A DNA stretch of 64,000 nucleotides, from positions 14,244 to 78,243 of the forward strand of contig JBJKUL010000001.1 of NCBI GenBank assembly GCA_045563135.1, read 5' to 3'. Positions within the stretch are counted from its first letter, which is position 1, and every line of letters begins with the position of its first letter. Shown here piece after piece: positions 22,280 through 35,434 of this stretch. A model generated the notes under the pieces. That model was not told the origin of the DNA, ran no database searches, and saw only the letters and a program-made list of their open reading frames with translations. The stretch is from Candidatus Actinomarina sp. Its GTDB lineage: Bacteria; Actinomycetota; Acidimicrobiia; Actinomarinales; Actinomarinaceae. Made by a program: the position numbers and the translations under genes.

Positions 22280-22344
22280 ATTTATTGAAGAAACTTTCTT
22301 ATTAAATTCTCAGAATTGATGTGTTAAATTAAATGGAGATGGAT

Positions 22345-22830
22345 ATGAAAAAGATATTAATATTTTGCTTATTCTTTAGCTTATGCTCTCCTTCGGCTAA
22401 CGAGGGCATTGTTTCTTTGTCCGACAAAACAACAACAACTCTAATGGTATCCGGGGAAGACTATCCAATAGTTTTAACCCAATGTCTGAATGAAGAACAT
22501 GGCTACAATATAGTAACTCCATTTGATGTTCAAGATTTAAAAACAACTCTCGATCAAATGAGTAATACAAAAGATGAGAGAACACAACTTTTGGAAGATG
22601 TCGATCTTTGCGTAAATAAGTATGATCTCTGGTCAGAATCTCAATCAATTAACCCGGATGAATTAGCAAAATTATATGATGAAAACCTAGAGCTAGCTAA
22701 ATGTCTAAGAGAAAAGGGGTTAAACGTACCCGATCCCAACCAGCAAGAACCAAAGCTTGATTTAAGCAACCTACAGAAGTCAAAAGAAGATATTACTCCA
22801 CTACTGCAAGAATGTGGATTTAGTAAGTAA
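22345..22830 (+). CDS. Lipoprotein with tandem Cys-pair domains (paralog 1)
   Basis: Signal MKKILIFCLFFSLC; LTQCLNEEHGY and LAKCLREKGLNVPDP. Confidence 0.8.
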   Translation: MKKILIFCLFFSLCSPSANEGIVSLSDKTTTTLMVSGEDYPIVLTQCLNEEHGYNIVTPFDVQDLKTTLDQMSNTKDERTQLLEDVDLCVNKYDLWSESQSINPDELAKLYDENLELAKCLREKGLNVPDPNQQEPKLDLSNLQKSKEDITPLLQECGFSK

Positions 22831-22837
22831 TAAGTAT

Positions 22838-24115
22838 TTAAAAACTAACTATAAATTTAGCTCCACCAAGGTCAGATTTATCTACTGTAATATTCCAGTC
22901 ATACTTTAAAACAATATTTTTTACAATACTTAAACCAAGACCCTTACCGCTATCATTTCTTGTTCTTGATTCATCTTCCTGCCAGAAGGGAGAGAATATC
23001 AAATCATAATTTTCTGGGCTGATCCCCACTCCGTCATCCTCAATTATTACTGAGGGAGCTTTCATAACCAATTCCGTGCTTATAGTTATTTTTTTTGATT
23101 TAAATTTTTCTGCATTTCCAATCAAATTGTTAAGCATTAATTTAAGTATTTTTTGGTTTGCAACAACCTTTATTTCAAGATTGTTTTTAAAATCAATATT
23201 CCTGTCCTCAATAGTAGTTTCAATTAATTTATTCAAATTAATTTTTTCATCAGAAACATCATCTTTACTGGAAGTCTCAAGTGTTAATAATGCCTCCAGT
23301 ATGGAGTTGATTTCAAATATATCTTCTTCAACTCCAGCGAGGTTTCTCTTTTCTACACTGCCTTCTTTTTTCAACTTTTCAATTTGTAATTTTAAACTTG
23401 TTAGTGGTGTTTTTAGCTCATGTGATGCATTTGAGATAAACTGCTTCTGACTAATTGAACTGATATGAACTTTCTCAAGAAGAGAATTAAACGTTGAAAT
23501 TAGTCTCCCAAGCTCATCATTACTTTTTACCTCATCAAGTCTTTCCACTTTTGCCAAAGGTTCAAATTGAGATATCTTTTTGATAGACCTACTAACAGGT
23601 CTTAATGCGATTTCTAATGAAATTAAAATCCCAATAACAACAAACAGAGAGGCAAAAATATAACTAATTACAAAAAGTCTCTCTATACCGTCGACTATTA
23701 GTCGAGGAGTAGACTCACTAAAGCCCACAACAATGCTTACTTCTTTGTCTACACTTTCAGTTTTTATAAAATTTAGATCATTTTTATTTTCATCGAATTC
23801 AACTTTTCTAGGATTGAAATCATCAATGAGACGAGGAGGAAAGTAGCTGTACTCTCTTATAAGTTTTCCACTTTGATTATCGTAAATAAATACAAAATAA
23901 TCACCTATGCGTGGTGAGTTTCTCAGATTTAAATTCCTATAGTCTTGTTCTAATTCTTCTACTAATCTCTCTCGCCCATCTTCCAAGGCACTTCTATATC
24001 TAATTTCTGCAATTTGCTCTAAAATATCCGGAGCTACAAAAAAACCACCACCAAGGACAATAAGTGTGATAATTATAATTTTTGTTCTTATTCCAACACT
24101 TTGCATTAATCCCAC
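22838..24115 (-). CDS. Sensor histidine kinase (HAMP-HisKA-HATPase)
   Basis: Two TMs, DELGRL, ASHELKTPL, NLIGNA, EDDGVG and GLGLSIV. Confidence 0.95.
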   Translation of the reverse strand: MGLMQSVGIRTKIIIITLIVLGGGFFVAPDILEQIAEIRYRSALEDGRERLVEELEQDYRNLNLRNSPRIGDYFVFIYDNQSGKLIREYSYFPPRLIDDFNPRKVEFDENKNDLNFIKTESVDKEVSIVVGFSESTPRLIVDGIERLFVISYIFASLFVVIGILISLEIALRPVSRSIKKISQFEPLAKVERLDEVKSNDELGRLISTFNSLLEKVHISSISQKQFISNASHELKTPLTSLKLQIEKLKKEGSVEKRNLAGVEEDIFEINSILEALLTLETSSKDDVSDEKINLNKLIETTIEDRNIDFKNNLEIKVVANQKILKLMLNNLIGNAEKFKSKKITISTELVMKAPSVIIEDDGVGISPENYDLIFSPFWQEDESRTRNDSGKGLGLSIVKNIVLKYDWNITVDKSDLGGAKFIVSF

Positions 24116-24780
24116 CTATACCCAAAACCACGAACAGTGTTTACATGCTGATGTAGATTGAATGGTTTCAATTTTTTTCTTAGGTAACCTATATATACTT
24201 CAACTTTATTATCATCCTCTTCGGTTGGATATAAGATTTCCCAGACTTCCTCTAATAATTCACTTTTAGCAACAATATTTCCAATGTTCCTTAATAAGAA
24301 GGTGAGTAAATCAAACTCCTGTCTTGTTAGTTTAATTTCAACCTCGTTACAGATAACCTTTCTTGCAGATATGTCAATTTTCAAATCCTGAAATTCTAAG
24401 ATATTATTGTGTGGTTCATCATTTTTCAAAAGCTTACGAACTCTCGCAAGAAGCTCAACCATGGAGAAGGGTTTTTTTAAATAATCGTTTGCGCCAGTAT
24501 CAAGACCCTCTTCAACATCATATTCTCCGCTTTTTGCTGTCAGCATTAAAATTGGTGTGACTATTCCAATTTCTCTTACTTTTGCGCAAAGTTTATACCC
24601 GTTCATTTTTGGCATCATTATATCTAGGATTACTAGATCGGGTTGATTTTCGATAATCTTAAAATAACCGTCTTCTCCATCAAAAGATTGTTCTACAACA
24701 TAGCCTTCATCTTGTAGCGAATCTTTAACCAAGTCTGATATTTTCTTATCATCTTCAACTAAAAGTATTTTTTTTACCAC
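24106..24780 (-). CDS. OmpR/PhoB-family response regulator
   Basis: LLVEDD, LDIMMP, KPF and winged helix VEVYIGYLRKKL...TVRGFGY. Confidence 0.96.
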   Translation of the reverse strand: MVKKILLVEDDKKISDLVKDSLQDEGYVVEQSFDGEDGYFKIIENQPDLVILDIMMPKMNGYKLCAKVREIGIVTPILMLTAKSGEYDVEEGLDTGANDYLKKPFSMVELLARVRKLLKNDEPHNNILEFQDLKIDISARKVICNEVEIKLTRQEFDLLTFLLRNIGNIVAKSELLEEVWEILYPTEEDDNKVEVYIGYLRKKLKPFNLHQHVNTVRGFGYRWD

Positions 24781-24832
24781 TAGTTAATAATGACAACATA
24801 AATAAATTTATCAAGTGTTAGGTAATACTCAC

Positions 24833-24854
24833 CACAGAAACTTCACAGGTTTAT
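24833..24854 (+). promoter_or_regulatory. Candidate response-regulator direct-repeat box, copy 1
   Basis: CACAGAAACTT-CACAGGTTTAT in the divergent promoter; 17/22 identical to 29651-29672. Confidence 0.65.
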
Positions 24855-24910
24855 CAGAATATCCTAAGGTTACAGCTGTTACAAAAGAGTATGAAAAAGA
24901 AAGGACGAAT

Positions 24911-25389
24911 ATGAAAAGATTATTATTAGGAGTAGGCGTTTTTGGTCTTGCTCTCGGTGTAGGCATTATGGGTATATCTTATGCCTCAGAAGCTCCTCAA
25001 GTTAGAGAGAATTTTTTTGAAAAAAAGGTTGCAAATGACAAAGCTGACAAACACAATCTTCTAGAAGAGTGTCTTAACAGGATCTTGTCGAAGAGGGTAC
25101 CCTGTCTCAGAATCAGTCTGATAGTGTATTAAGCGCTGTTGAATCAAAAAAAATAACGATAAAAGCGGAAAGACAAGAAATCAAAGATCTAATTAAAGAA
25201 ATGCTTGAAGATGGAGAAATTACCGTAGTAGAACTAGATTCTGTAGCAACGATAGATCAAGAAAAAATAGATCGATTTAAAGAACGCTTTTCAGAGGAGC
25301 TTGAAGACGGGGTAATTTCAGAAGAAGAGTTTAAAGACAACATTAAAAGTCATCACAGAAAAGGACACCATAAGTCGAAAGGCAGGTAA
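24911..25389 (+). pseudogene. Secreted helical protein split by a frameshift near 25075 (pseudogene or assembly error)
   Basis: Signal peptide from ATG 24911. Another frame continues DLVEEGTLSQNQSDSV...KEMLEDGEIT into ORF 25201-25389, which has a His-rich end. Confidence 0.7.
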
Positions 25390-25402
25390 GTAGTTAAGTA
25401 TT

Positions 25403-25432
25403 TGTGTATTGGCCCTAGTCCAATGCACATTT
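25403..25432 (+). terminator. Putative hairpin terminator
   Basis: TGTGTATTGG-loop-CCAATGCACA followed by TTT. Confidence 0.45.
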
Positions 25433-25446
25433 ACTAAAATGTAACC

Positions 25447-25888
25447 ATGAAAAAATTAATACCTGAAACAATCGAAAATAAAATTCCAAGTAACAAATTT
25501 GTCTATTACTTTTGTTGGCTACTGGTTGCGTTCAATTTATTTAGAAGTCTTGAACACATATTTTCTGAAGATGGTGGAGCAGAATCTATTGCAGGTATTC
25601 CACTAAGTAGCTATTCACCAGATGCTGCAAACAACATTGTTTCAATATTTGCACAGTGGGGTTTTTCACAGCTAGTTTTAGCTTGCATTTTGCTTCTGGT
25701 TGTTTTAAAAATTAGAGAACTTATTCCGCTTATGTTGCTAATTATTGCTTTAGAAAACATTATTCAGAGCAGGAATTGGTTTCTATAAGCCTTTAATCAT
25801 AAGTGCAGATCCTCCAGGAGCACTTTCTCCCTTGATAGGTTTAGTGACTTTAATTTTCTTCTTTATTTCGATAAGAGAAAACAATTAA
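25447..25888 (+). pseudogene. Multi-TM membrane protein with frameshift near 25765
   Basis: After ...ALENI a shifted frame reads RAGIGFYKPLIISADPPGALSPLIGLVTLIFFFISIRENN* and ends 4 nt before the next gene. Confidence 0.7.
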
Positions 25889-25892
25889 AATT

Positions 25893-26483
25893 ATGAAAAA
25901 ATATTTAACCATTTTTTTATTACTTATATTTGTTCTTTTCTCGGCGTGTTCATCATCAGATGAATCACAAGGAGTTGTTTCTACAAATGATTTATCAAGC
26001 GATACAACAGTTACAACAATTGCAGAGGAAGTAGTTGAAGAAGTAGTTTCAGTTGAAGATGCACAGCTTTTATTAGCCAGGTGCTTAAGAGGAAATGGAT
26101 ATGACATTAAGGATCCTAAAAATGATGAGAGCCTACAAAGTGTTTTGCAACCAGTGTTTTTAGCTGCTGATCAAAAAGGTAGAGAGGAACTTTTTGAGAC
26201 CATTCAGACATGTGCTGAAGAGAATAACATACCGCTTGGTGGTTCAGCAGAGTTTGAAAATCCAGAGGCTGTTGCAGACTCTTTAGACACTCAGTTAGAG
26301 TTTGCTCAATGTTTACGAGAAAACGGGATAGAGATAGAAGACCCAAGTGCCGAAAGCCCCCTTAGACCTTTACTTGTAGAACTTGTTCAGTCTGGACAAT
26401 ATCTACAGACCCAAATTCAAGAAGCTGCTGGTATATGTTTTGACGATCTTGGAATTGACCCACCACAACAGGGCAGGGGTTAA
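25893..26483 (+). CDS. Lipoprotein with tandem Cys-pair domains (paralog 2)
   Basis: Lipobox FSAC; LARCLRGNGYDIKDP and FAQCLRENGIEIEDP. Confidence 0.88.
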   Translation: MKKYLTIFLLLIFVLFSACSSSDESQGVVSTNDLSSDTTVTTIAEEVVEEVVSVEDAQLLLARCLRGNGYDIKDPKNDESLQSVLQPVFLAADQKGREELFETIQTCAEENNIPLGGSAEFENPEAVADSLDTQLEFAQCLRENGIEIEDPSAESPLRPLLVELVQSGQYLQTQIQEAAGICFDDLGIDPPQQGRG

Positions 26484-26494
26484 AGCTACATATA
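26478..26494 (+). repeat. 17-bp direct repeat, left copy
   Basis: GGTTAAAGCTACATATA, identical to 28167-28183. Confidence 0.9.
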
Positions 26495-28134
26495 TGGTAA
26501 ATAAAGTCGTAAAAGCTGGTCGTATTCCTGCAGTTTTAGTCGGATGGAACATATTTGATGCGCTACTTCATGTTGCGATTGACATGGCAGAGCCACTCCG
26601 AATAACTGGCAACATTATTGCTATTTTTGTTGCGGTTGCGATATTGATAGGTGCTCCCAAAAAACTTTCTTCTAGCCTGTTGCTAGCTGCATTTATTTCA
26701 ATTGTTGCTCTAAACACAGTTCATGTAAGTGAGCATGATTTTGCAATTCCCATGCTCATTTTCATAGGCCTAAGTCTGTACTTGCTTCTCCGCTGGACTC
26801 AAATCTTAAAAATAGAAGATTTGAAAATTAGGGAACCTAAGAAGCAAAATTACTTTCATAAACGATGGTTTGCTGTAGCATTGTCGATTTTTGGAGTGCT
26901 GGTTATATTGGCCGTGGGAGTTATGAACTCGCTGAATATGCAAGATCAGCTATTTGACGGCGCTTTAAAAGAAGCTGATTATTGGAGTGATGAGCCGGTT
27001 ATTTTATCTGCCGGTATGGGTTTTGAGGGGATTATTGGTTGGCCGGAAGTAAATGAAGAAACTGTTCGAGAGGCCGAAGGAACTTGGTATGGTTCAGTAA
27101 TGTGTACAAATGGAGAGGATCCTCCAGCTGGCGCATATACCAGCATAGTAAGCACAGCCGGGGTTGAATTATTCTACAAGGGTACTGCTGAGGACGATGA
27201 CGGGTTGCCAATTGTATTTAGTTGGCCTGTAGCCACAGAAACTGTTGATCTAACCGATTTTCAATTCACACTGAATACAGGCGAGATCGTTTTTCCAAAT
27301 AGCGCTGGAATGTTGCCAAACTGGGAATTAAATGAACGCAATACGGTTGTTGTGTTTGGTGATTTTGGCAATCGGGGTTTCAGTAGCGAGGATGGAGCAA
27401 TTTTCCCTGTAAGGCTAGATATTGTTGAAGACGAAACACCGCTACTACTTATTGGTCCGAACGGCCAAGAATTTAATGCAGTGGGCTTGAGCTGGGAAAC
27501 TGATGCAAGCCCTTATGATTCGGGACCGAAATTGGTCGGGGCTAAACTGAACCATGTCGGTAGTGAGGCAATGGGTGAAGGTGGTTTGGGAGTTGGAGAA
27601 AGATCTGGAGTTTTGCCAAACGACGAACTATCACTGTATGACGAGGCTGACTTTCGCATACGCGTGCTAACAACAGGAGGCTTCTCACCCGATGGTATTA
27701 CTGGTTTGACCCCCACAATGTTTGAGGACTTTTTCCGAATTCACGCCAATGGGTCTAACGGTGAAGTAGTTCTCTTGGAAAAGGTGGGTCAGGAGTATCT
27801 AGTAGCAGGCGGAACACTCAGAATTGTTGGGCTTTCGGATTTGGGGCAAAAAGAAAACCCTGATGAAGGAATCTTTTATGATGATTGTTATGCTGAAGAT
27901 AGGGATAACTACATAGACATAATCCTAGTTGGCGACGAAGCAGCAGCACGAAACATTACCCATGTAGAAATCCCATCACTAGAGGGTGGTTACAGTGCCT
28001 TTTACAATCCTGGTGGTCCTGGCCCAGAACCATTTGAGGGCGTTAGGTATACCGCTCCGGGACCAGCAGATCTGGAGCCTGTCATAAACGCCCTAGATAA
28101 CCCGATGCGAGTTAGTCGCGAAGCCAAGAATTAG
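26494..28134 (+). CDS. Membrane protein (about 5 TMs) fused to a large acidic extracellular domain of unknown function; GC-richer than its flanks
   Basis: Hydrophobic N-terminus, then DGLPIVFSWPV, PNWELNERNT and GGFSPDG segments. ATG 26494 avoids overlap with the upstream gene. Confidence 0.8.
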   Translation: MVNKVVKAGRIPAVLVGWNIFDALLHVAIDMAEPLRITGNIIAIFVAVAILIGAPKKLSSSLLLAAFISIVALNTVHVSEHDFAIPMLIFIGLSLYLLLRWTQILKIEDLKIREPKKQNYFHKRWFAVALSIFGVLVILAVGVMNSLNMQDQLFDGALKEADYWSDEPVILSAGMGFEGIIGWPEVNEETVREAEGTWYGSVMCTNGEDPPAGAYTSIVSTAGVELFYKGTAEDDDGLPIVFSWPVATETVDLTDFQFTLNTGEIVFPNSAGMLPNWELNERNTVVVFGDFGNRGFSSEDGAIFPVRLDIVEDETPLLLIGPNGQEFNAVGLSWETDASPYDSGPKLVGAKLNHVGSEAMGEGGLGVGERSGVLPNDELSLYDEADFRIRVLTTGGFSPDGITGLTPTMFEDFFRIHANGSNGEVVLLEKVGQEYLVAGGTLRIVGLSDLGQKENPDEGIFYDDCYAEDRDNYIDIILVGDEAAARNITHVEIPSLEGGYSAFYNPGGPGPEPFEGVRYTAPGPADLEPVINALDNPMRVSREAKN

Positions 28135-28166
28135 AATGTTTCTAGTCCTTACCTCTACAAGGTAGA

Positions 28167-28183
28167 GGTTAAAGCTACATATA
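28167..28183 (+). repeat. 17-bp direct repeat, right copy, overlapping an 8-bp hairpin
   Basis: GGTTAAAGCTACATATA; hairpin ACCTCTAC-AAG-GTAGAGGT at 28151-28169. Confidence 0.9.
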
Positions 28184-28230
28184 ATTAATAATTTTGGCGG
28201 CAAACTTAGTATAACTTATAAAAAATATTA

Positions 28231-28272
28231 AATGTATACTATATTTTACATAATGTATACTATATTTTACAT
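28231..28272. promoter_or_regulatory. Tandem 21-bp near-palindromic operator pair
   Basis: AATGTATACTATATTTTACAT twice, each with ATGTA...TACAT symmetry, upstream of an Xre-regulator operon. Confidence 0.75.
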
Positions 28273-28308
28273 ATTGAATAAATTACAAAAACATAATTAA
28301 GGAGAATA

Positions 28309-28784
28309 ATGAAAAATAAGTATTTGAAAGAGATCAGATTGAAAGTTATAGGGTTATAAGTATGAACGCAAAACTTATAGGAATCGTAGCAGAGATAGGC
28401 GCAACATCACTAACGATGATTTGGACGTGGAGGAACTTAAGTGGATTCTCAACAATGACTATAAAGTCAATTGCTAAAGTCCTTACACAGGGAATCGGGA
28501 TCGCTATTGGGGCAATTGTTTTGGTCTCAATATTTGTTTCTATTTTTTCAGCAATTCAAAGTGGAGATCATAGTGGTGCAGGTCTTGAAGATGAAAGAGA
28601 TAGAATGTATGAACTATATGCCACACAACTCAGCAGCGGTATATTTGGCTTGGCCCTTGTAACAGTTCTTATTTTAATGGGCTGGTTTAATCTTTCCATC
28701 AACACAGGACTTATTGCTATTGTCTACTCAGGATTTACTGCAGTTGTTGCAAGCGGTTTTTTAAGAATGTATCTTTATAGATAA
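28309..28784 (+). CDS. Four-TM membrane protein with DERD motif (Xre partner); probable 1-nt deletion near 28319
   Basis: A strong AAGGAG RBS precedes ATG 28309. Adding one A gives MKNKVFERDQIESYRVIS, in frame with ORF 28362. Confidence 0.7.
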
Positions 28785-28795
28785 TAAAAATAAAA

Positions 28796-29029
28796 ATGGC
28801 AAAGAAGAAAATTAAAATAGAGAACTCAGTTAGAAAACTTAGGTTTAATAATAATGAGATGACGCAGCAAGAGCTTGCTGATTTGGTTGGCGTTTCCAGG
28901 CAAACAGTAGTTGCTATTGAGAAATACAAGTACACCCCATCTCTAGAATTAGCTTTTAAAATTTCAACAGTGTTTAACAAAGAGATACAAGAAGTTTTTT
29001 ATATTGGTCAACAACAAGATGAACATTAA
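28796..29029 (+). CDS. Xre/Cro-family HTH regulator
   Basis: MTQQELADLVGVSRQTVVAIEKYKYTPSLELAFKI. Confidence 0.95.
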   Translation: MAKKKIKIENSVRKLRFNNNEMTQQELADLVGVSRQTVVAIEKYKYTPSLELAFKISTVFNKEIQEVFYIGQQQDEH

Positions 29030-29031
29030 AT

Positions 29032-29631
29032 ATGTATAAAAAAGTCTCGATAACATTAATACTGTTTACTGCTTGTTCACTATTCCAACAAGAAGAACAA
29101 TCTGTTGTTTCCGTTGCAGACACTGATAAAGGAAAAGCAGCAATTGCTTCTGGTGTGCAACTTACAGATGAACGAGAAGAAATTTCAGACGAGGATGCAC
29201 CCTTAGTGCTCGTACAGTGCGTCAATGAATCAGGCTATAAATTTAAAGAACCAAAAAACTTTTTAGATCTTTACACCACGATTGCATCGTATTTTGAAAC
29301 TATAACCGAACAAGAGGCCGAGGAATTGTGGGACATAATCGAGGAATGTGCTTTGAAATATAATTTATGGGGTGTAGCAGATGAAAATCAATTCGAAGAC
29401 CCAGCACAAGTATCAAAAGAAATTGATAGATCACTGTTTATGGCGAAGTGTTTTAGAGAAAGTGGATACCCAAAAGTTCCAGATCCAGATTATTTCAACA
29501 GAGAAGTCAGATTAGACGCTTATATTGATGAAGATTGGGAGTTAAGAGAAGACGATCCATTGGTTCAGACATGGCAAGCATGTGAAGATAATCTACCGGA
29601 AGAATTAAAAGATGAGGAGTGGGATGCATAG
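29032..29631 (+). CDS. Lipoprotein with tandem Cys-pair domains (paralog 3)
   Basis: Lipobox FTAC; LVQCVNESGYKFKEP and MAKCFRESGYPKVPDP. Confidence 0.88.
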   Translation: MYKKVSITLILFTACSLFQQEEQSVVSVADTDKGKAAIASGVQLTDEREEISDEDAPLVLVQCVNESGYKFKEPKNFLDLYTTIASYFETITEQEAEELWDIIEECALKYNLWGVADENQFEDPAQVSKEIDRSLFMAKCFRESGYPKVPDPDYFNREVRLDAYIDEDWELREDDPLVQTWQACEDNLPEELKDEEWDA

Positions 29632-29650
29632 AAAACTTAAGAAATTAATT

Positions 29651-29672
29651 CTCAGAAAACTTACAGGTTTAA
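29651..29672 (+). promoter_or_regulatory. Candidate response-regulator direct-repeat box, copy 2
   Basis: CTCAGAAAACT-TACAGGTTTAA upstream of the exporter operon. Confidence 0.65.
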
Positions 29673-29696
29673 TAAACTACTCTAATTGGAACAATT

Positions 29697-31280
29697 ATGA
29701 AAAATATATTTAAATTAAAAAACTTATTCACTTTAGTTGCTGTTGCGGCATTAGCTTATGGTGGTTATTATTTTGGCACTCAGAACACTGAAATATCCTC
29801 AAGTAGTAAAACTCTAGAACTTACTACAGTCGCTATACAAAAAGGTGAATTAGCAAAGAAGGAAGAGTACAACGGAACCTTAAGACAAACTGACAGCAAG
29901 ATTCTTAACTCACCAATGTCAGGAGTTGTTACATTAGTACCCAAAGAGGGAACAATTGTAAACTTTGGAGAAGTACTCTTTGCTGTTGATAACAAACCTG
30001 TAATTTTAGTTGAAGGTGCAACACCGTTTTACAGGACTTTAGATTTAAATTCAGATGCTGGACCAGATGTTTTACAACTTGAGCAAGCACTTGTTTTTTT
30101 AGGTTATGCAGTAGAAGACTTTGTACCTGATGAGACTTTTGATGAAACTACTTCAAACATGCTTAATGCTCTTTATGTTGATTATAAGATTGATACAAAA
30201 TCTGAAATTACACCCGCAGAGCAGGTCGCTATTAATTTAAAAAAGACAGAAGTAGACAATATTGAAGAAACAATTTCAGATGGTGGAACTACACTCGCAC
30301 AAGTTAACGATAAAAAAAAGAAATTAGACGATGCAAAAGAAGCTTCTACTGAAGAAAGTACAGCTTGGAAAGCAGCCGATACAGCCATCGAAAATGCTGA
30401 AGAAAGCCTAACTCTGTATAGGGATGAAACAAACCCTAAGACAAAAGAAAAGAAAGCAGACGGAACACTAGATGCTGCAATTGAGGACTTAGAGCAAACT
30501 ATTGAGGAACAGAAAAGAATCAAAGCTTTAGAAAAAGGTAAAGAGTCTGGAGTAGATGCTACTGAAGCTTTAGCTATAGAAACAGCACAAAAAGCATATG
30601 ATGATGCCTTAAAAAATTATAACGAAGGCGTTGACCAAGCAGCTGAACTAGCTAAAGCAAAAGAAGAGCTTGAAGAACTTAAGCTTGCCTCAAAATCAGA
30701 AACTTTTAGTCCAACAAATGCTTACGCATCGAAAACACCAATAATTGTTGGTTCTTATATAAACGATGTAGGCTCAGCGGTTGTTTTAAATTCTCCTCTT
30801 TACAATATTTCCTCTATTGGAATTGAAGTTGTCTTTCAGGTAGATGCCACAGATCAAGAAACAGTTTCTCTTGGCGACAGTGTGGAGATAGAACTTCCAA
30901 CAGATGAGAGAGTGCCAACGGTTATTACTTTTATTGACCAGGTTGTAACACAAACTCAAGCAGGAGAATTTATAGAAGTGACTTTAGAAGTCCTTAACCC
31001 GGAAGAGATTGAAGCTTACGACCAAGCTCCGGTAAAAGTGTTTGTCACAACAGAAATCTCTAAAGATGTATTATACGTTCCAGTAAATGCGCTCCTTGCT
31101 TTAGCAGAGGGAGGGTATGCTTTGGAAATTTACGATGGAGAGGTTGATGGTGGAACATTTAACGGTGAATCTGGTGTCGATACCAGCTATGTTGCTGTTG
31201 AAATAGGAGTTTTCACTGACGGCTTTGTGGAAGTAAAAGGAAATATCTCAGAGGGTCAAATAGTAGTTGTACCAAGATGA
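29697..31280 (+). CDS. Membrane-fusion adaptor (MacA/YknX-like) with PG-binding motif and coiled coil
   Basis: N-terminal anchor, barrel-sandwich SPMSGVVT, GPDVLQLEQAL..LGY, VPVNAL and VEV.G.ISEGQIVVVP. Confidence 0.85.
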   Translation: MKNIFKLKNLFTLVAVAALAYGGYYFGTQNTEISSSSKTLELTTVAIQKGELAKKEEYNGTLRQTDSKILNSPMSGVVTLVPKEGTIVNFGEVLFAVDNKPVILVEGATPFYRTLDLNSDAGPDVLQLEQALVFLGYAVEDFVPDETFDETTSNMLNALYVDYKIDTKSEITPAEQVAINLKKTEVDNIEETISDGGTTLAQVNDKKKKLDDAKEASTEESTAWKAADTAIENAEESLTLYRDETNPKTKEKKADGTLDAAIEDLEQTIEEQKRIKALEKGKESGVDATEALAIETAQKAYDDALKNYNEGVDQAAELAKAKEELEELKLASKSETFSPTNAYASKTPIIVGSYINDVGSAVVLNSPLYNISSIGIEVVFQVDATDQETVSLGDSVEIELPTDERVPTVITFIDQVVTQTQAGEFIEVTLEVLNPEEIEAYDQAPVKVFVTTEISKDVLYVPVNALLALAEGGYALEIYDGEVDGGTFNGESGVDTSYVAVEIGVFTDGFVEVKGNISEGQIVVVPR

Positions 31281-31960
31281 AAACCAGTACAAAAACTGTC
31301 ATCTCTATAAATAATATTTCAAAAGTTTACGAAGGTCCTCCACCAGTAAGAGCACTAGATGGTGTCTCTCTTGAAATCAAACAAGGAGATTTCGTTTCAA
31401 TAGTTGGTCAATCAGGTAGTGGAAAATCAACATTTTTGAACATGATAGGGCTTCTAGACAGCATAACTGATGGCTCTATAGAAATTGAAGGAAAAGACGT
31501 CTCAGAACTTTCAGACAATGAGCTTTCTAAGTTTAGAGGTGAAAAGATTGGATTTATATTTCAAAGTTTTTTTCTACTTCCAGGGTTAACTGCTCAGGAA
31601 AATGTTGCTGAAGGTCTTTTATACCAAGGTATTTCCAGAACAAAGAGATTAGAAAAAGCGAAGGAAGTTTTAGAACAAGTCGGCCTTGGAGATAGATTGA
31701 CACACTTATCTAAAGAATTATCTGGAGGTCAACAACAGAGAGTTGCTATTGCACGTGCTCTTGTCCAAGACCCGGCATTCGTTTTAGCAGACGAACCTAC
31801 AGGAAACTTAGATAAAGAGTCTGGTCTAAATATCCTCAATATTTTGAAAGATTTAAACAACCAGGGTAAAACGGTAATAATGATTACTCACAACCAAGAA
31901 CATGCAGAAATGTTTGAAAAAGTTATTGAATTAGTTGATGGAAAAATAGTAAATCAATGA
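31277..31960 (+). CDS. ABC ATPase (LolD/MacB family)
   Basis: GQSGSGKST, LSGGQQQRVAIARAL, ADEPTGNLD and ITH. Confidence 0.96.
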   Translation: MKTSTKTVISINNISKVYEGPPPVRALDGVSLEIKQGDFVSIVGQSGSGKSTFLNMIGLLDSITDGSIEIEGKDVSELSDNELSKFRGEKIGFIFQSFFLLPGLTAQENVAEGLLYQGISRTKRLEKAKEVLEQVGLGDRLTHLSKELSGGQQQRVAIARALVQDPAFVLADEPTGNLDKESGLNILNILKDLNNQGKTVIMITHNQEHAEMFEKVIELVDGKIVNQ

Positions 31961-33141
31961 AAAGAAATAAACTTAAAATCAGAGACTTGTTTTTTGTAGC
32001 TTTATATGGAGTTAAGGCAAGAAAAGGTAGAGCAACACTCACGTCAATTGGGATTGGTATTGGAATTGCAGCAATTGTTGCAGTGTCCGGAATTTCAGCA
32101 TCAGGTAGGGCAGATCTTCTTTCAACCTTAGAGTCTCTTGGTACAAACCTAGTTAAAGCATCACCTCAAGCTGGTTTTTTTGGAACACAAGAAGAGCTCC
32201 CTAAAGGTGTTTTAGGCATGGTAGAAAGAATAGGTCCTGTTCAGGAAGTTACATCAACAACCCAAACAGATCTTTTGGTAAGAAGAAGTAACTTTATTTC
32301 ACAATTTGAAGGTGGAGGTATTTCAACCATTGTCACCAGTGCTGAACTCTTAGATGTGATAGGTGGAAAGCTAACTGATGGTCGATTTATTCAGGATGGT
32401 CTATCTGATATTCCAGTTACAGTTTTGGGAAGCGTAACAGCTCAAAGATTAGGAATTAATAATTTATCTACACCAACAAAAATTTTGATAGAAAATGAAT
32501 GGTTTGGAGTTATTGGCATACTAGAAGAATTAAAAATTCATCCAGATTTAGATCGATCAGTGTTCATTGGCTACGGAGTAGCAGAAAAACTATTTGGCAT
32601 AAAGGATGAGCCTACAACTATTTATGTAAGGGCAAATCCAACATATATTGAAGACGTTGTAGAAGTACTTGCCCCATCTATGAATCCAGAAAACCCTGAT
32701 CAAGTTGAAGTCACACGTCCATCAGATGCACTCGAAGCACAACAAGCTGCAGAAGAGGCTTTTACTAATCTATTACTAGGTTTGGGATCAGTTGCTTTAC
32801 TTGTTGGGGGAGTTGCAATAGCAAATGTTATGGTCATGTCTGTTCTTGAAAGAAGGATGGAAATTGGCGTAAGAAGATCAATTGGCGCGACCAGAAGAGA
32901 AATACGATACCAGTTTCTATTAGAAAGTATCGTTTTGTCAGGTATAGGAGGTCTTGTTGGGGTAGTTCTCGGTGCTGTGATAACCCTGGGTTATACTAAT
33001 TACACGGGTATTGTATTCTCTATACCTGTATGGCAAATATTTGGAGCAGTATTAGTAGCTTTATTAATCGGAGCATTATCTGGTGTTTACCCAGCCATAA
33101 AAGCCTCAAAAATCCAACCAGCAGAGGCAGTGAGAAAGTAA
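31957..33141 (+). CDS. ABC permease (MacB/FtsX family)
   Basis: LTSIGIGIGIAA, GGVAIANVM..SVLERRMEIGVRRSIGA and YPA.KAS..P.EA.R. Confidence 0.95.
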   Translation: MKRNKLKIRDLFFVALYGVKARKGRATLTSIGIGIGIAAIVAVSGISASGRADLLSTLESLGTNLVKASPQAGFFGTQEELPKGVLGMVERIGPVQEVTSTTQTDLLVRRSNFISQFEGGGISTIVTSAELLDVIGGKLTDGRFIQDGLSDIPVTVLGSVTAQRLGINNLSTPTKILIENEWFGVIGILEELKIHPDLDRSVFIGYGVAEKLFGIKDEPTTIYVRANPTYIEDVVEVLAPSMNPENPDQVEVTRPSDALEAQQAAEEAFTNLLLGLGSVALLVGGVAIANVMVMSVLERRMEIGVRRSIGATRREIRYQFLLESIVLSGIGGLVGVVLGAVITLGYTNYTGIVFSIPVWQIFGAVLVALLIGALSGVYPAIKASKIQPAEAVRK

Positions 33142-33659
33142 AACTCCTAGGCCTATTAATCATTCTATCTTCATGCACAATTGGTGAAGAACAGTCTGAT
33201 GGTGTTGTAACCATAGATTCTACAACGGCAACTACAACTGTAACTCAAGAGGTAACCTTCGAAGAAGGGGTGCTAAATTTTGCTCAATGTATGCGAGAAG
33301 AGGGGATTGATTTTCCTGATCCAAGCTTTGACATTGATGGAAATCCTGAGTTCGACGATGTAAATATTGAAAATGATGATGAATTTGAGGCAGCTTTTGA
33401 CAATTGTGAAAATATTTTAAGGGAAGCTTTACCTGAACAGTTTGATCTTGATCCAGAGGTTGAAGCCGCCTTAGTTGATGCATCTTTAGAGTTCTCTCAA
33501 TGCATGAGAGATGAAGGAATTGATTTTCCCGATCCTAAACCAGGAGAATTTGGTTTTTTTGCTTTTAGAGATGCAGGTATAGATTTTCAGTCGGAAGATG
33601 TTCAAGAAGCCTTTGAAATATGCCAACCTGAAAACCCTCTTGAAAATCTTGATGAATAA
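33138..33659 (+). CDS. Lipoprotein with tandem Cys-pair domains (paralog 4); start codon uncertain (GTA)
   Basis: Signal KLLGLLIILSSC; FAQCMREEGIDFPDP and FSQCMRDEGIDFPDP. Confidence 0.8.
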   Translation, partial: VKLLGLLIILSSCTIGEEQSDGVVTIDSTTATTTVTQEVTFEEGVLNFAQCMREEGIDFPDPSFDIDGNPEFDDVNIENDDEFEAAFDNCENILREALPEQFDLDPEVEAALVDASLEFSQCMRDEGIDFPDPKPGEFGFFAFRDAGIDFQSEDVQEAFEICQPENPLENLDE

Positions 33660-33715
33660 GTAATTACTTGGAAGCTAAAACAAAAGTTTTATTAACTCAA
33701 GCAATTTACAAACAT

Positions 33716-34960: not shown

Positions 34961-35434
34961 TTAGACACCAGATTCATAATAAGAGGGGGCAGTCACGGCT
35001 ATAGTAAGCCAACAGTTTTCTTTTGGATTATCTGGACATTCGTCAAACTGGAACACCCAGATGACTTCAAAATATGAGTTATTTTTAGCTAAAATTTTTA
35101 TTTCATAATGATTACTATCTTCAGTTTCTACTGTTTTTGTAAAGCTATATTCTTTTAAATCGAGAATTGCATTGTAGGGCTCAGACAAAAGCATTTTTTC
35201 AAAGTTCTCTTTTGGACCAGTTATCTCTTTGTTGCTTGGGTGTGCAAAACCCCATATAGTATCTAGGGCTTCCTCAGGGTCAGAGGAGTAAGTTTTATAG
35301 CTATCCAAAATTTGGGTTAGGACATTTTCAGATTGTTGTAGGTCTAAATCAGAAGAGGTTGTTTCTTGGCTAGAAATATTGTTGTTACAAAAAACAAGAA
35401 CTAAGAATAAAATTAAGTATTTTTTAACCAACAA
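34961..35434 (-). CDS. DUF4864-like lipoprotein
   Basis: WGFAHPSNK..TGP..NF..M...Y and CW.T..V; signal peptide ending in Cys. Confidence 0.7.
   Translation of the reverse strand: MLVKKYLILFLVLVFCNNNISSQETTSSDLDLQQSENVLTQILDSYKTYSSDPEEALDTIWGFAHPSNKEITGPKENFEKMLLSEPYNAILDLKEYSFTKTVETEDSNHYEIKILAKNNSYFEVIWVFQFDECPDNPKENCWLTIAVTAPSYYESGV

What the first reader, a model, noticed from the sequence alone, without database searches (positions are those of the whole stretch)
22290..33659. Envelope module: four diverged tandem Cys-pair lipoproteins around a two-component system and a MacAB-like exporter
Seen: four acidic lipoproteins (22345, 25893, 29032, 33138) share one architecture. Each has a lipobox, a G/S-V/I-V-S/T motif, a linker, then two copies of [L/F/M]xxC[L/M/V/F]xxxG...P followed 30-45 residues later by a second Cys. 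The scaffold is kept while the sequence between the Cys pairs is highly divergent. They are interleaved with an OmpR/HK pair, an Xre module and a PG-binding MFP-ATPase-permease operon. Known: MacAB/YknXYZ-type pumps under two-component control handle envelope stress and antimicrobial peptides, and I recall single CMRxxG.PDP lipoproteins beside such pumps in Actinobacteria without an assigned function. Inference: a four-member expansion in a streamlined genome suggests a diversifying set of disulfide-stapled ligand-capture subunits that feed one pump or sensor.
Basis: partly seen in the sequence, partly recalled or inferred. Interest (0 to 1): 0.82.

Follow-up and report, generated by a model that had tools for sequence, protein, structure and literature searches.

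The report
Unnamed lipoprotein partner of MacB-type pumps
Four related small lipoproteins in this tiny marine actinobacterial genome belong to a large, never-named protein family that almost always sits directly in front of one kind of ATP-driven envelope export pump, so it is probably a missing fourth part of that pump.

Summary
Four paralogous lipoproteins (23-34% identical) each carry a lipobox, a short V-V/A-S/T motif, a linker and two homologous ~60-residue domains with one Cys pair each. They are the only copies in the 1.08 Mb genome.

The family has no Pfam or NCBIfam model and no sequence match to a solved structure. Sources name its members only "hypothetical protein". It is large: 3207 representatives at E<=1e-3.

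It is the first gene of a conserved cassette: OmpR-type regulator and kinase, then lipoprotein, adaptor (MFP), ATPase and MacB-type permease.
- In 80 of 80 loci picked by sequence, the MFP follows on the same strand.
- In an evenly drawn sample, 38 of 48 assessable places show the same order.
- Across 301 genomes, lipoprotein and adaptor occur together in 34, alone in 8 and 6, and neither in 253.
- The lipoprotein stop overlaps the MFP start in 26 of 73 loci.

In this genus the ancestral order is three tandem copies upstream and one downstream of the pump. The kinase pair is missing from 12 of 18 assessable loci.

Gene-wide dN/dS is at most 0.37, so diversifying selection is not supported.

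The most likely role is an extracytoplasmic accessory subunit of the pump. Binding and ligand capture remain untested, because the structure tools were off.

The parts
22345..22830 (+). LP1, lipoprotein paralogue (161 aa from the ATG at 22345). It lies tail to tail with the kinase gene.
   Evidence: ORF. BLASTP to LP2 and LP3 gives E 7e-22. Its C half hits the family domain HMM at 7e-10; its N half does not. Orthologues were found in 15 of 18 relatives' loci.
22838..24115 (-). Sensor histidine kinase with two membrane segments and an outside loop of about 130 aa
   Evidence: Pfam HisKA 1.1e-9, HATPase_c 3.6e-19, HAMP 1.1e-3. An orthologue lies beside the locus in 5 of the 17 relatives' loci that can be judged. 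It was not found elsewhere in 5 genomes that lack it at the locus.
24106..24780 (-). OmpR-family response regulator. Its reading frame overlaps the kinase gene.
   Evidence: Pfam Response_reg 3.4e-29, Trans_reg_C 9.4e-22.
25893..26483 (+). LP2, lipoprotein paralogue (196 aa)
   Evidence: Both halves hit the family domain HMMs (C half 9e-11, N half 5e-9).
26494..29029 (+). Variable insert between LP2 and LP3. It holds a 546-aa membrane protein with a large outside domain (26494-28134, GC 0.43), a 140-aa membrane protein (28362-28784) and an Xre-type HTH protein (28796-29029).
   Evidence: ORFs; HTH_3 2.2e-13; GC. In 12 relatives LP2 and LP3 are directly adjacent. The Xre gene and the 140-aa gene were found in none of the 18 relatives' loci. 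The large gene was found in 3, each time at another position.
29032..29631 (+). LP3, lipoprotein paralogue (199 aa), in the canonical position directly upstream of the adaptor gene. It is the most conserved of the four.
   Evidence: dN/dS 0.03-0.09. Column conservation 0.94. Position.
29697..31280 (+). Membrane-fusion (adaptor) protein, 527 aa, about 170 aa longer than its canonical orthologues
   Evidence: No Pfam hit of its own. It aligns to orthologues that carry PG_binding_1 (56 of 66) and HlyD_3 (19 of 66). tblastn with it hits the gene after the lipoprotein in 80 of 80 loci.
31277..31960 (+). ABC ATPase of the MacB/LolD/FtsE type. Its start overlaps the adaptor's stop.
   Evidence: Pfam ABC_tran 6.6e-35. 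Nearest NCBIfam models are DarD, MacB and LolD, all below their cut-offs. Junction sequence.
31957..33141 (+). MacB-type permease, 394 aa, with a periplasmic core domain
   Evidence: Pfam FtsX 1.1e-20 and MacB_PCD 2.1e-16.
33030..33659 (+). LP4, lipoprotein paralogue; the lipobox Cys codon is at 33174. The start is uncertain: either the ATG at 33030 (112 nt of out-of-frame overlap with the permease) or the GTA at 33138, which overlaps the permease stop. It is the paralogue closest to the canonical family.
   Evidence: Both halves hit the domain HMMs at 1e-18 or better. It groups with the 70 canonical proteins in the tree. Start-codon analysis.

Best explanation
The four genes encode members of an unnamed lipoprotein family that is a fixed part of a six-gene envelope cassette. 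The cassette is widespread in Actinomycetota and also occurs in Chloroflexota. It consists of an OmpR-type regulator and a sensor kinase, followed by lipoprotein, membrane-fusion protein (usually with a peptidoglycan-binding domain), ABC ATPase and MacB-type permease.

PROPOSED MECHANISM
1. The protein is exported and lipid-anchored on the outer face of the cell membrane.
2. It carries two homologous small domains on a flexible tether. Each domain is probably held by one disulfide.
3. It works as an extracytoplasmic accessory subunit of the pump, in contact with the adaptor and/or the permease's periplasmic domain.
4. There it either captures and hands over the substrate or controls assembly or gating of the adaptor.
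5. It is made together with the adaptor from one message, often by overlapping stop and start codons.

IN THIS GENUS
The single ancestral gene became three tandem copies upstream and one downstream of the pump. Each copy is now kept by purifying selection, which suggests four non-redundant jobs: different specificities, or a mixed assembly. The kinase pair only tunes expression and has been lost from many species of the genus.

SHOWN: paralogy, domain duplication, lipobox with Lgt and LspA present in the genome, invariant Cys pattern, synteny, phyletic co-occurrence, gene overlap, persistence without the kinase pair, and purifying selection.

INFERRED: lipidation, disulfides, physical contact with the pump, and any ligand binding.
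For: SYNTENY
- The adaptor gene follows on the same strand in 80 of 80 sequence-selected loci. ATPase was found in 78, permease in 76, kinase in 72 and regulator in 74 of 80; most misses are contig ends.
- In an even draw of 301 Actinomycetota genomes, 50 places held a strong match and 48 could be judged. The adaptor lies immediately downstream in 38 of the 48.

PHYLETIC PATTERN
- Lipoprotein and adaptor together in 34 genomes, lipoprotein only in 8, adaptor only in 6, neither in 253.
- Fisher p is 4e-31. This is overstated, because related genomes are not independent.

GENE COUPLING
- By my ORF heuristic, the lipoprotein stop overlaps the adaptor start by 4 nt in 24 of 73 loci and by 1 nt in 2.

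INDEPENDENCE FROM THE KINASE
- 12 of the 18 genus loci that can be judged (19 examined, one cut by a contig end) keep the lipoproteins and the pump but have no kinase pair.
- No kinase orthologue was found elsewhere in 5 of those genomes, which are 70-90% complete.

CO-EVOLUTION (weak evidence)
- Distance-matrix correlation over 51 loci is highest with the adaptor (r 0.71, partial 0.48). Next comes the permease's periplasmic domain (0.61, partial 0.32).
- It is lowest with the kinase sensor (0.47, partial 0.10) and the kinase cytoplasmic part (partial -0.03).

OTHER
- Lgt, LspA and a DsbB-family protein are present in the window's own genome.
- Purifying selection acts on all four copies.
- No further conserved neighbour was found beyond the six genes.
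Against: - No direct test of binding or fold was possible.
- 10 of the 48 unbiased places lack the adaptor. 4 of them sit beside a kinase pair only (L123, L139, L149, L156), 2 beside a permease without an adaptor, and 4 stand alone.
- 8 genomes have the lipoprotein without a strong adaptor match. So the family can exist without this pump.
- In L139, and in this window (LP1), a copy sits next to the kinase gene.
- The mirror-tree signal is confounded by shared descent. The kinase-sensor distances are also saturated (mean 2.55), which by itself lowers that correlation.
- LP1-LP3 form their own clade, apart from the canonical proteins. What holds for the canonical family may hold less well for them.
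- No DsbA-like (Thioredoxin_4) or VKOR gene was found in the genome.
Confidence: 0.5

Rival explanations
1. The lipoprotein is a co-sensor of the histidine kinase. It binds the stimulus, or the kinase's outside loop, and so sets the kinase's activity. Recalled examples of this kind in Actinobacteria are LpqB with MtrB and CseA with CseC. On this reading the pump is only the regulated output.
For: - A kinase pair lies within 3 kb in 31 of 48 unbiased places, and in 72-74 of 80 selected loci.
- 4 places have lipoprotein plus kinase pair with no pump within 7 kb.
- One of them is in G144, which has no strong adaptor match anywhere.
- In L139 a copy lies directly downstream of the kinase on the same strand.
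- The window's LP1 abuts the kinase gene.
Against: - The lipoproteins persist with the pump in 12 genus loci that have no kinase pair. No orthologue was found elsewhere in the 5 genomes checked.
- The gene is on the adaptor's strand and often overlaps it. It is never fused into the kinase operon in the 80 selected loci, where the kinase pair is either divergent or separately upstream.
- The partial correlation with the kinase sensor is 0.10, and with the cytoplasmic part -0.03.
Confidence: 0.2
2. The lipoprotein is the cargo of the machine, not a subunit. The MacB-type permease would extract it from the membrane and release or reposition it in the wall. LolCDE, a MacB-type transporter, does this with lipoproteins in Gram-negative bacteria.
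For: - LolCDE is listed among the MacB homologues that act on lipoproteins (review PMC5985334, passages read).
- A short conserved motif sits 9-14 residues after the lipid Cys in 37 of 56 canonical members and in all LP4 orthologues. It could be a recognition tag.
- The gene is always co-encoded with the pump.
Against: - No evidence of release.
- The motif is missing in 19 of 56 canonical members, which keep the same cassette.
- Family members exist without the pump.
- An adaptor with a wall-binding domain is not part of Lol-type extraction.
Confidence: 0.1
3. The lipoproteins are stand-alone decoys or immunity proteins. They would bind a cationic peptide or a metal at the cell surface, in parallel with the pump. 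Recalled examples are the LanI lipoproteins beside LanFEG transporters and LanRK kinase pairs. The four copies would widen the range of ligands.
For: - The window's four proteins are strongly acidic; LP4 has a net charge of about -40.
- The gene layout mirrors lipoprotein + ABC transporter + two-component immunity modules (review PMC5786555, seen only in a search listing).
- One LP-kinase place lies beside a copper P-type ATPase and a CtaG-like gene.
Against: - Acidity is not conserved. Net charge runs from -55 to +7 with a median of -10.5 in 56 canonical members.
- The copper genes were found in 1 of 140 loci only.
- The Met and His residues of the canonical motif are not kept in the window's copies.
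- Translational coupling to the adaptor points to a fixed-ratio partner rather than a free decoy.
Confidence: 0.1

Closest known systems
YknWXYZ of Bacillus (four-component MacB-type exporter)
   Same: It has a MacB-type permease, a separate ATPase and an adaptor in a bacterium without an outer membrane. It also has a fourth, co-transcribed accessory protein that affects the adaptor. The adaptor binds peptidoglycan (review PMC5985334, passages read).
   Different: YknW is a polytopic membrane protein, not a lipoprotein. Pfam detects no shared family with the window's proteins. The Cys-pair domain is absent. The passages read describe no adjacent two-component system.
CusRS with CusCFBA of Escherichia coli (recalled from knowledge, not from a call)
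   Same: A divergent OmpR-type two-component pair sits beside an operon in which a small periplasmic substrate carrier (CusF) is co-encoded with the adaptor and feeds it. This is the closest functional analogy for a capture-and-hand-over subunit.
   Different: That pump is an RND pump with an outer-membrane channel. CusF is a small beta-barrel without lipid anchor or Cys pairs. A link to copper was tested here and not found: 1 of 140 loci.
MacAB-TolC and the MacAB-like Spr0693-0695 of Streptococcus pneumoniae
   Same: The permease has MacB_PCD and FtsX domains, and the ATPase is nearest the MacB and LolD models. The adaptor is present. Export from the outer face by mechanotransmission is the established mode of this family (PMC5985334, passages read).
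   Different: Those systems have no lipoprotein component. Here the ATPase is a separate chain, the adaptor carries a PG_binding_1 domain in 56 of 66 orthologues, and there is no outer-membrane channel.
LanI lipoprotein + LanFEG + LanRK lantibiotic immunity modules (recalled; review PMC5786555 seen only in the listing)
   Same: A surface lipoprotein, an ABC exporter and a two-component pair are encoded together, and the lipoprotein works outside the membrane.
   Different: The ABC type differs and there is no adaptor. Pfam shows no shared family. This family is not tied to any peptide-biosynthesis genes in the 140 loci looked at (for 79 of them).
LpqB-MtrAB and CseA-CseBC of Actinobacteria (recalled)
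   Same: These are lipoproteins encoded beside a sensor kinase in Actinobacteria.
   Different: Those genes lie in the kinase operon and have no pump. Here the gene belongs to the pump operon and survives loss of the kinase pair.

Membership tests
Bacterial lipoproteins (Lgt/Lsp pathway) | Signal peptide that ends in a lipobox with an invariant Cys | tested here: met
   A lipobox Cys is present in all four window proteins. It is an invariant column in the 66-sequence alignment A5.
Bacterial lipoproteins (Lgt/Lsp pathway) | The genome encodes Lgt and signal peptidase II | tested here: met
   PF01790 scored 89.9 bits and PF01252 scored 92.8 bits in the window's own genome, both over their cut-offs.
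Bacterial lipoproteins (Lgt/Lsp pathway) | Lipid modification of the mature protein | not testable with these tools
   This needs mass spectrometry or globomycin sensitivity.
MacB-type (FtsX-fold) ABC exporter with adaptor | Permease with a MacB periplasmic core domain and a C-terminal FtsX domain | tested here: met
   PF12704 2.1e-16 and PF02687 1.1e-20, both over their cut-offs.
MacB-type (FtsX-fold) ABC exporter with adaptor | Cognate ABC ATPase of the MacB/LolD/FtsE group | tested here: met
   PF00005 6.6e-35. The best NCBIfam models are DarD, MacB and LolD at about 230 bits, all below the equivalog cut-offs.
MacB-type (FtsX-fold) ABC exporter with adaptor | Adaptor of the HlyD/membrane-fusion family | tested here: inconclusive
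   The window's adaptor has no Pfam hit. It has only a weak TIGR00999 match (5e-5, 22.5 bits against a cut-off of 319). HlyD_3 is found in 19 of its 66 aligned orthologues.
Peptidoglycan-binding domain PG_binding_1 (for the adaptor) | Match to PF01471 | tested here: inconclusive
   No match in the window's adaptor or in any of the 10 genus sequences. A match in 56 of the 56 other orthologues. The aligned stretch in the window keeps several invariant columns.
PG_binding_1 (for the lipoprotein domain) | Profile similarity to the adaptor's PG_binding_1 stretch | tested here: not met
   hhalign probability is 0.2-0.3%.
CHCH / COX17-type Cys-pair helical hairpins | Match to PF06747, PF16860 or PF05051 | tested here: not met
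   Only sub-threshold hits (E 0.02-1, 10-15 bits against cut-offs of 25-27), and only in some canonical members.
BceAB-type sensing transporters | Ten-helix permease with a large loop between helices 7 and 8 (feature taken from PMC5985334) | tested here: not met
   The permease has 394 aa, with one MacB_PCD between the first membrane segment and a single FtsX domain.
Any named protein family (for the lipoprotein) | A model in Pfam-A or NCBIfam, or a solved relative | tested here: not met
   No hit over a cut-off for the 4 window proteins, for 10 distant members or for 6 canonical members. No PDB sequence hit better than E 0.009. All 120 listed relatives have no Pfam entry and are named only 'hypothetical protein'.

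The most novel reading that the evidence does not exclude
The family is a new kind of extracytoplasmic binding subunit for exporters. It would be a lipid-tethered, two-domain receptor that presents the same ligand both to a MacB-type pump (through its adaptor) and to the cognate sensor kinase. That would explain why it is found with the pump alone, with the kinase alone, or with both. In the streamlined marine genus, four fixed paralogues would give one pump four specificities while the kinase has become dispensable.
Probability: 0.15. Interest if true: 0.8.

Novelty: new variant of a known kind. Interest (0 to 1): 0.55.

Why it matters
MacB-type pumps with adaptors are common in bacteria without an outer membrane. 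What the adaptor does there, and how substrates reach the pump, are open questions; the review read says so.

A conserved lipoprotein made together with the adaptor is a concrete candidate for the missing piece. It is present in about one in seven sampled Actinomycetota genomes (42 of 301), and it is missing from Pfam and NCBIfam.

The family gives a defined six-gene unit to test in culturable hosts such as Amycolatopsis, Nocardioides and Dactylosporangium. It also supplies thousands of natural sequence pairs for co-evolution analysis.

For the marine genus, a 1 Mb genome keeps four copies under purifying selection. That argues the system matters in the open ocean.

Tried and rejected
TOOLS THAT WERE UNAVAILABLE
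- The Atlas held no model for LP4 and returned only unnamed actinobacterial clusters. It did not hold the canonical member I asked for.

SEARCHES THAT FOUND NOTHING USEFUL
- PDB sequence searches with two profiles gave nothing better than E 0.009.
- Literature: four full-text searches found no paper on this lipoprotein family. For one review (PMC5985334) I read 12 passages. It does not contain the words Actinobacteria or Streptomyces. All other papers I saw only as listings or abstracts. Supplements were closed and were not consulted.
- Fused forms: a search for longer relatives gave 4 proteins. By their sequences they look like read-through or frameshift joins of neighbouring genes (kinase-LP, LP-adaptor), with Arg-rich out-of-frame stretches. 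I do not count them as domain fusions.
- A seventh conserved gene: crude clustering of stop-to-stop ORFs in 79 loci found no family outside the cassette region in more than 10 loci. Shadow ORFs blur this result.
- The promoter and terminator scan found 39 promoter-like sites against 43.6 expected, and 7 terminator-like sites against 9.1 expected. It gives no information.

IDEAS TESTED AND DROPPED
- Copper or metal link. It was suggested by weak COX17/CHCH hits, by the Cys/Met/His motif, and by one locus with a CopA-like ATPase and a CtaG-like gene. tblastn with those genes hit only that 1 of 140 loci, so I dropped it.
- The lipoprotein domain as a peptidoglycan-binding domain: hhalign probability 0.2-0.3%.
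- Diversifying selection: NG86 dN/dS is at most 0.37 for every copy and pair, and dS is saturated in many pairs. No site-level test was run.

WEAK EVIDENCE, NOT USED AS SUPPORT
- RNA: 14 seawater metatranscriptome runs hold 65-81% of the sampled words of 28700-33700. Contigs of 4 of those runs cover LP3, adaptor, ATPase, permease and LP4 with few differences. These are contigs from RNA libraries that may contain DNA. The runs were chosen with this very stretch. Variable genes of other strains would not map at 90%. So I draw no conclusion on transcription or on relative level, and none from the poorly covered LP1-kinase-LP2 part.
- The mirror-tree correlations are weak evidence only.

Full report
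WHAT IS IN THE WINDOW

The stretch 22.3-33.7 kb lies in a 33% GC genome of 1.08 Mb in 2 contigs. The closest named public record is titled uncultured Candidatus Actinomarina (L077). The stretch holds, in this order:
- LP1 (+)
- a histidine kinase and an OmpR-type regulator (-)
- three small ORFs (+)
- LP2 (+)
- a 546-aa membrane protein, a 140-aa membrane protein and an Xre-type HTH protein (+)
- LP3 (+)
- an adaptor (membrane-fusion protein, MFP), an ABC ATPase and a MacB-type permease (+)
- LP4 (+)

The adaptor/ATPase and ATPase/permease junctions are 4-nt overlaps. LP3 starts 2 nt after the Xre stop.

THE OBSERVATION

The four lipoproteins are clearly paralogous. BLASTP E-values run from 2.5e-12 to 9.3e-23 at 23-34% identity. 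Each has:
- a lipobox Cys;
- a [GS]-[VI]-V-[ST] motif 8-10 residues after it;
- a low-complexity linker;
- two Cys pairs, spaced 37-44 residues within a pair.

The two halves are homologous.
- Off-register BLAST hits link the N half of LP2 to the C halves of LP3 and LP4.
- In the wider family the N- and C-domain profiles align with hhalign probability 99.9% and E 1.4e-34.
- A C-domain HMM hits 56 of 56 N-domains and 0 of 56 shuffled ones.
- Six of the eight window half-domains are significant against these HMMs. The N halves of LP1 and LP3 are not.

The genome has exactly these four copies. Lgt, signal peptidase II and a DsbB-family gene are present. VKOR and a DsbA-like Thioredoxin_4 gene were not found; the genome is 94% complete.

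One correction concerns LP4. The codon at 33138 is GTA, and the first ATG of the open frame is at 33030.

THE FAMILY

None of the four proteins, 10 distant relatives or 6 canonical relatives reaches any Pfam or NCBIfam cut-off. Profile searches of PDB sequences find nothing.

A profile of the four mature proteins finds 3207 representatives at E<=1e-3 and 529 at E<=1e-10, among 1.84 billion. A profile of six canonical members finds 2856 clusters at E<=1e-10. All 120 listed have no Pfam entry, and any name they carry is 'hypothetical protein'.

In a 66-sequence alignment the lipid Cys, the four domain Cys, two Arg, two Gly and two D-P are invariant.

Net charge ranges from -55 to +7, so acidity is not a family trait. 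The V-A-S-L-type motif after the lipid Cys is present in 37 of 56 canonical members.

GENOMIC CONTEXT ACROSS THE FAMILY

Sequence-selected sample. The best 80 were kept with 10 kb flanks. They come from Acidimicrobiia, Thermoleophilia, Actinomycetes and Chloroflexota. One record each is labelled Burkholderiales and plain "bacterium", and two are labelled Bifidobacterium; all four are metagenome bins. tblastn with the window's proteins finds:
- the adaptor directly after the lipoprotein, on the same strand, in 80 of 80;
- the ATPase in 78, the permease in 76, the kinase in 72 and the regulator in 74.

The kinase pair is either divergent or co-directional upstream. By my ORF heuristic, the lipoprotein stop overlaps the adaptor start by 4 nt in 24 of 73 loci and by 1 nt in 2. 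A further 16 loci have gaps of 1-25 nt.

Unbiased sample. Because those 80 loci were chosen by sequence, I also searched 301 evenly drawn Actinomycetota genomes.
- 42 hold the lipoprotein at E<=1e-5 and 40 hold the adaptor at E<=1e-30.
- Both occur in 34, lipoprotein only in 8, adaptor only in 6, and neither in 253.
- Two cells rest on genomes flagged unpublished: G123 and G041.

I fetched 60 of the matched places and scored them with HMMs of the six cassette proteins.
- 50 places are strong matches and 48 can be judged.
- 38 of the 48 have the adaptor immediately downstream.
- 31 of the 48 have a kinase or regulator within 3 kb.
- Of the 10 without an adaptor, 4 have only the kinase pair, 2 have a permease without an adaptor, and 4 stand alone.

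No other gene family is widely conserved around the cassette. Tandem copies also occur elsewhere: about four in L132, two in L134 and two in L044.

CONTEXT WITHIN THE GENUS

23 of 24 same-genus genomes have 2-6 matches. I compared the window with 17 fetched loci and L077.

The common order is PFK, thioesterase, LP1, LP2, LP3, adaptor, ATPase, permease, LP4, then a convergent unrelated lipoprotein gene.

- The kinase pair lies at the locus in only 6 of 19: the window, L077, L097, L102, L107 and L111.
- 12 loci lack it, and 1 is cut by a contig end.
- In 5 of the genomes that lack it, a search with the kinase found no orthologue. There were two partial 30% matches and three with nothing; completeness is 70-90%.
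- The Xre gene and the 140-aa membrane gene were found in none of the 18 other loci.
- The 546-aa gene was found in 3, each time at another position and once broken.

The stable unit is lipoproteins plus pump.

A tree of 116 mature sequences puts LP1, LP2 and LP3 in one clade (SH-aLRT 100). It puts LP4 with the 70 canonical proteins. Each paralogue is monophyletic (97-100), except LP2, which needs two changes. Composition bias and long branches are flagged by the tool. The most divergent species, L107, has one upstream copy plus LP4.

SELECTION

Against 18 relatives, dN/dS is:
- 0.02-0.09 for the ATPase and permease;
- 0.03-0.09 for LP3;
- 0.07-0.17 for LP4;
- 0.11-0.19 for LP1;
- 0.13-0.37 for LP2.

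dS is often near or beyond saturation. Column conservation within orthologue groups is 0.94 (LP3), 0.88 (LP4), 0.73 (LP1) and 0.74 (LP2). In LP4 the variable part is the Thr-rich linker, not the stretch between the Cys. This is purifying selection on four distinct paralogues.

WHICH PARTNER?

Distance matrices over 51 loci correlate best between lipoprotein and adaptor (r 0.71; partial 0.48 after removing the ATPase+regulator signal). Next are the permease periplasmic domain (0.61; 0.32) and the permease membrane part (0.55; 0.21). Lowest are the kinase sensor (0.47; 0.10) and the kinase cytoplasmic part (0.56; -0.03).

Known partners behave as expected: kinase-regulator 0.93, and ATPase-permease membrane part 0.81. 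I treat all of this as weak, because descent is shared and the sensor distances are saturated.

THE ADAPTOR

Canonical orthologues are about 350 aa. They carry PG_binding_1 in 56 of the 56 non-genus sequences, and HlyD_3 in 19 of 66 overall. The 10 sequences from this genus, including the window's 527-aa protein, give no Pfam hit. They are about 170 aa longer, in a Lys/Glu/Ala-rich stretch that I take to be a long helical hairpin. That is inference from the sequence.

INTERPRETATION

Four lines of evidence say that the lipoprotein belongs to the pump:
- strict position in front of the adaptor;
- frequent overlap with its start codon;
- matching presence and absence across genomes;
- survival with the pump when the kinase pair is lost.

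By analogy with the accessory YknW of YknXYZ (passages of PMC5985334) and with CusF in the Cus system (recalled), I propose a lipid-tethered accessory subunit. It would act at the adaptor or the permease periplasmic domain, in substrate capture and hand-over or in control of adaptor assembly.

The places where the lipoprotein sits with a kinase pair and no pump keep a sensor-linked role alive. A dual role is the boldest reading that the data allow.

I found nothing on the substrate. A copper lead failed, with 1 of 140 loci.

COMPARISON WITH WHAT IS KNOWN, AND VERDICT

The pump is a member of the MacB-type family by its permease and ATPase domains. The adaptor's membership rests on its orthologues. 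The lipoprotein belongs to no named family.

The whole is a new variant of a known kind: a MacB-type exporter of monoderm bacteria with a previously undescribed, widely conserved lipoprotein component. I found no paper that describes it in four full-text searches.

Noticed in passing
window 33030-33180; L096-L112 and L077 at the permease/LP4 junction: LP4 has no standard start codon near its signal peptide. In 18 genus loci, the LP4-frame codon that overlaps the permease stop is ATG in 2, GTA in 12 and ATA in 4. An upstream in-frame ATG (a 209-aa ORF that overlaps the permease by 112 nt) exists in 13 loci. It is absent in L108-L110, where no ATG or GTG precedes the lipobox. So initiation is either from a long leader or at a near-cognate codon after termination.
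   Followed up: partly
window 26494-28134: A 546-aa protein with several membrane segments and an outside domain of about 400 aa has no Pfam or NCBIfam hit. Its GC is 0.43, against 0.33 around it. It sits between LP2 and LP3 here, beside the regulator on the other strand in L097 and L077, and is frameshifted in L111. Its dS to relatives (0.29-0.32) is well below that of its neighbours (0.6-1.5). This suggests recent exchange within the genus.
   Followed up: partly
window 28362-29029: The Xre-type HTH gene and the 140-aa membrane gene before LP3 were found in none of 18 relatives' loci. Metatranscriptome contigs from three runs join 28459 to 28801, so a variant without those 341 nt exists in the sea.
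   Followed up: no
window 34961-35434 (-): An unrelated 157-aa putative lipoprotein (a lipobox-like L-V-F-C) lies convergent to LP4. It keeps this position in 15 of 18 relatives' loci but evolves fast (40-71% identity, dN 0.2-0.5). It has no family assignment.
   Followed up: no
window 24911-25389: Two small ORFs lie divergent from the regulator: one of 73 aa with a signal or membrane segment, and one of 62 aa that is acidic with a His/Lys-rich tail. They recur only in loci that keep the kinase pair (L102, L107, L111). They may be its direct targets.
   Followed up: no
window 29697-31280: The adaptor of this genus is about 170 aa longer than canonical orthologues, through a Lys/Glu/Ala-rich insert. 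It has also lost a detectable PG_binding_1 signature (0 of 10 genus sequences against 56 of 56 others).
   Followed up: partly
L133, L138, L144, L153, L158, L160: In several other genomes, most of the same class, a second adaptor-like gene follows the permease. That is the position LP4 occupies in this genus.
   Followed up: no
L111 (G010:C3) and G010:C4: One same-genus genome has broken copies. LP4 is in two pieces with a stop codon, LP3 is missing, and the 546-aa gene is frameshifted.
   Followed up: no
L156 (G144:C11): Here a family member with a kinase pair but no pump lies beside a zf-HC2 anti-sigma-like gene, a CtaG-like gene and an HMA-domain P-type ATPase. This was the only such case in 140 loci.
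   Followed up: yes
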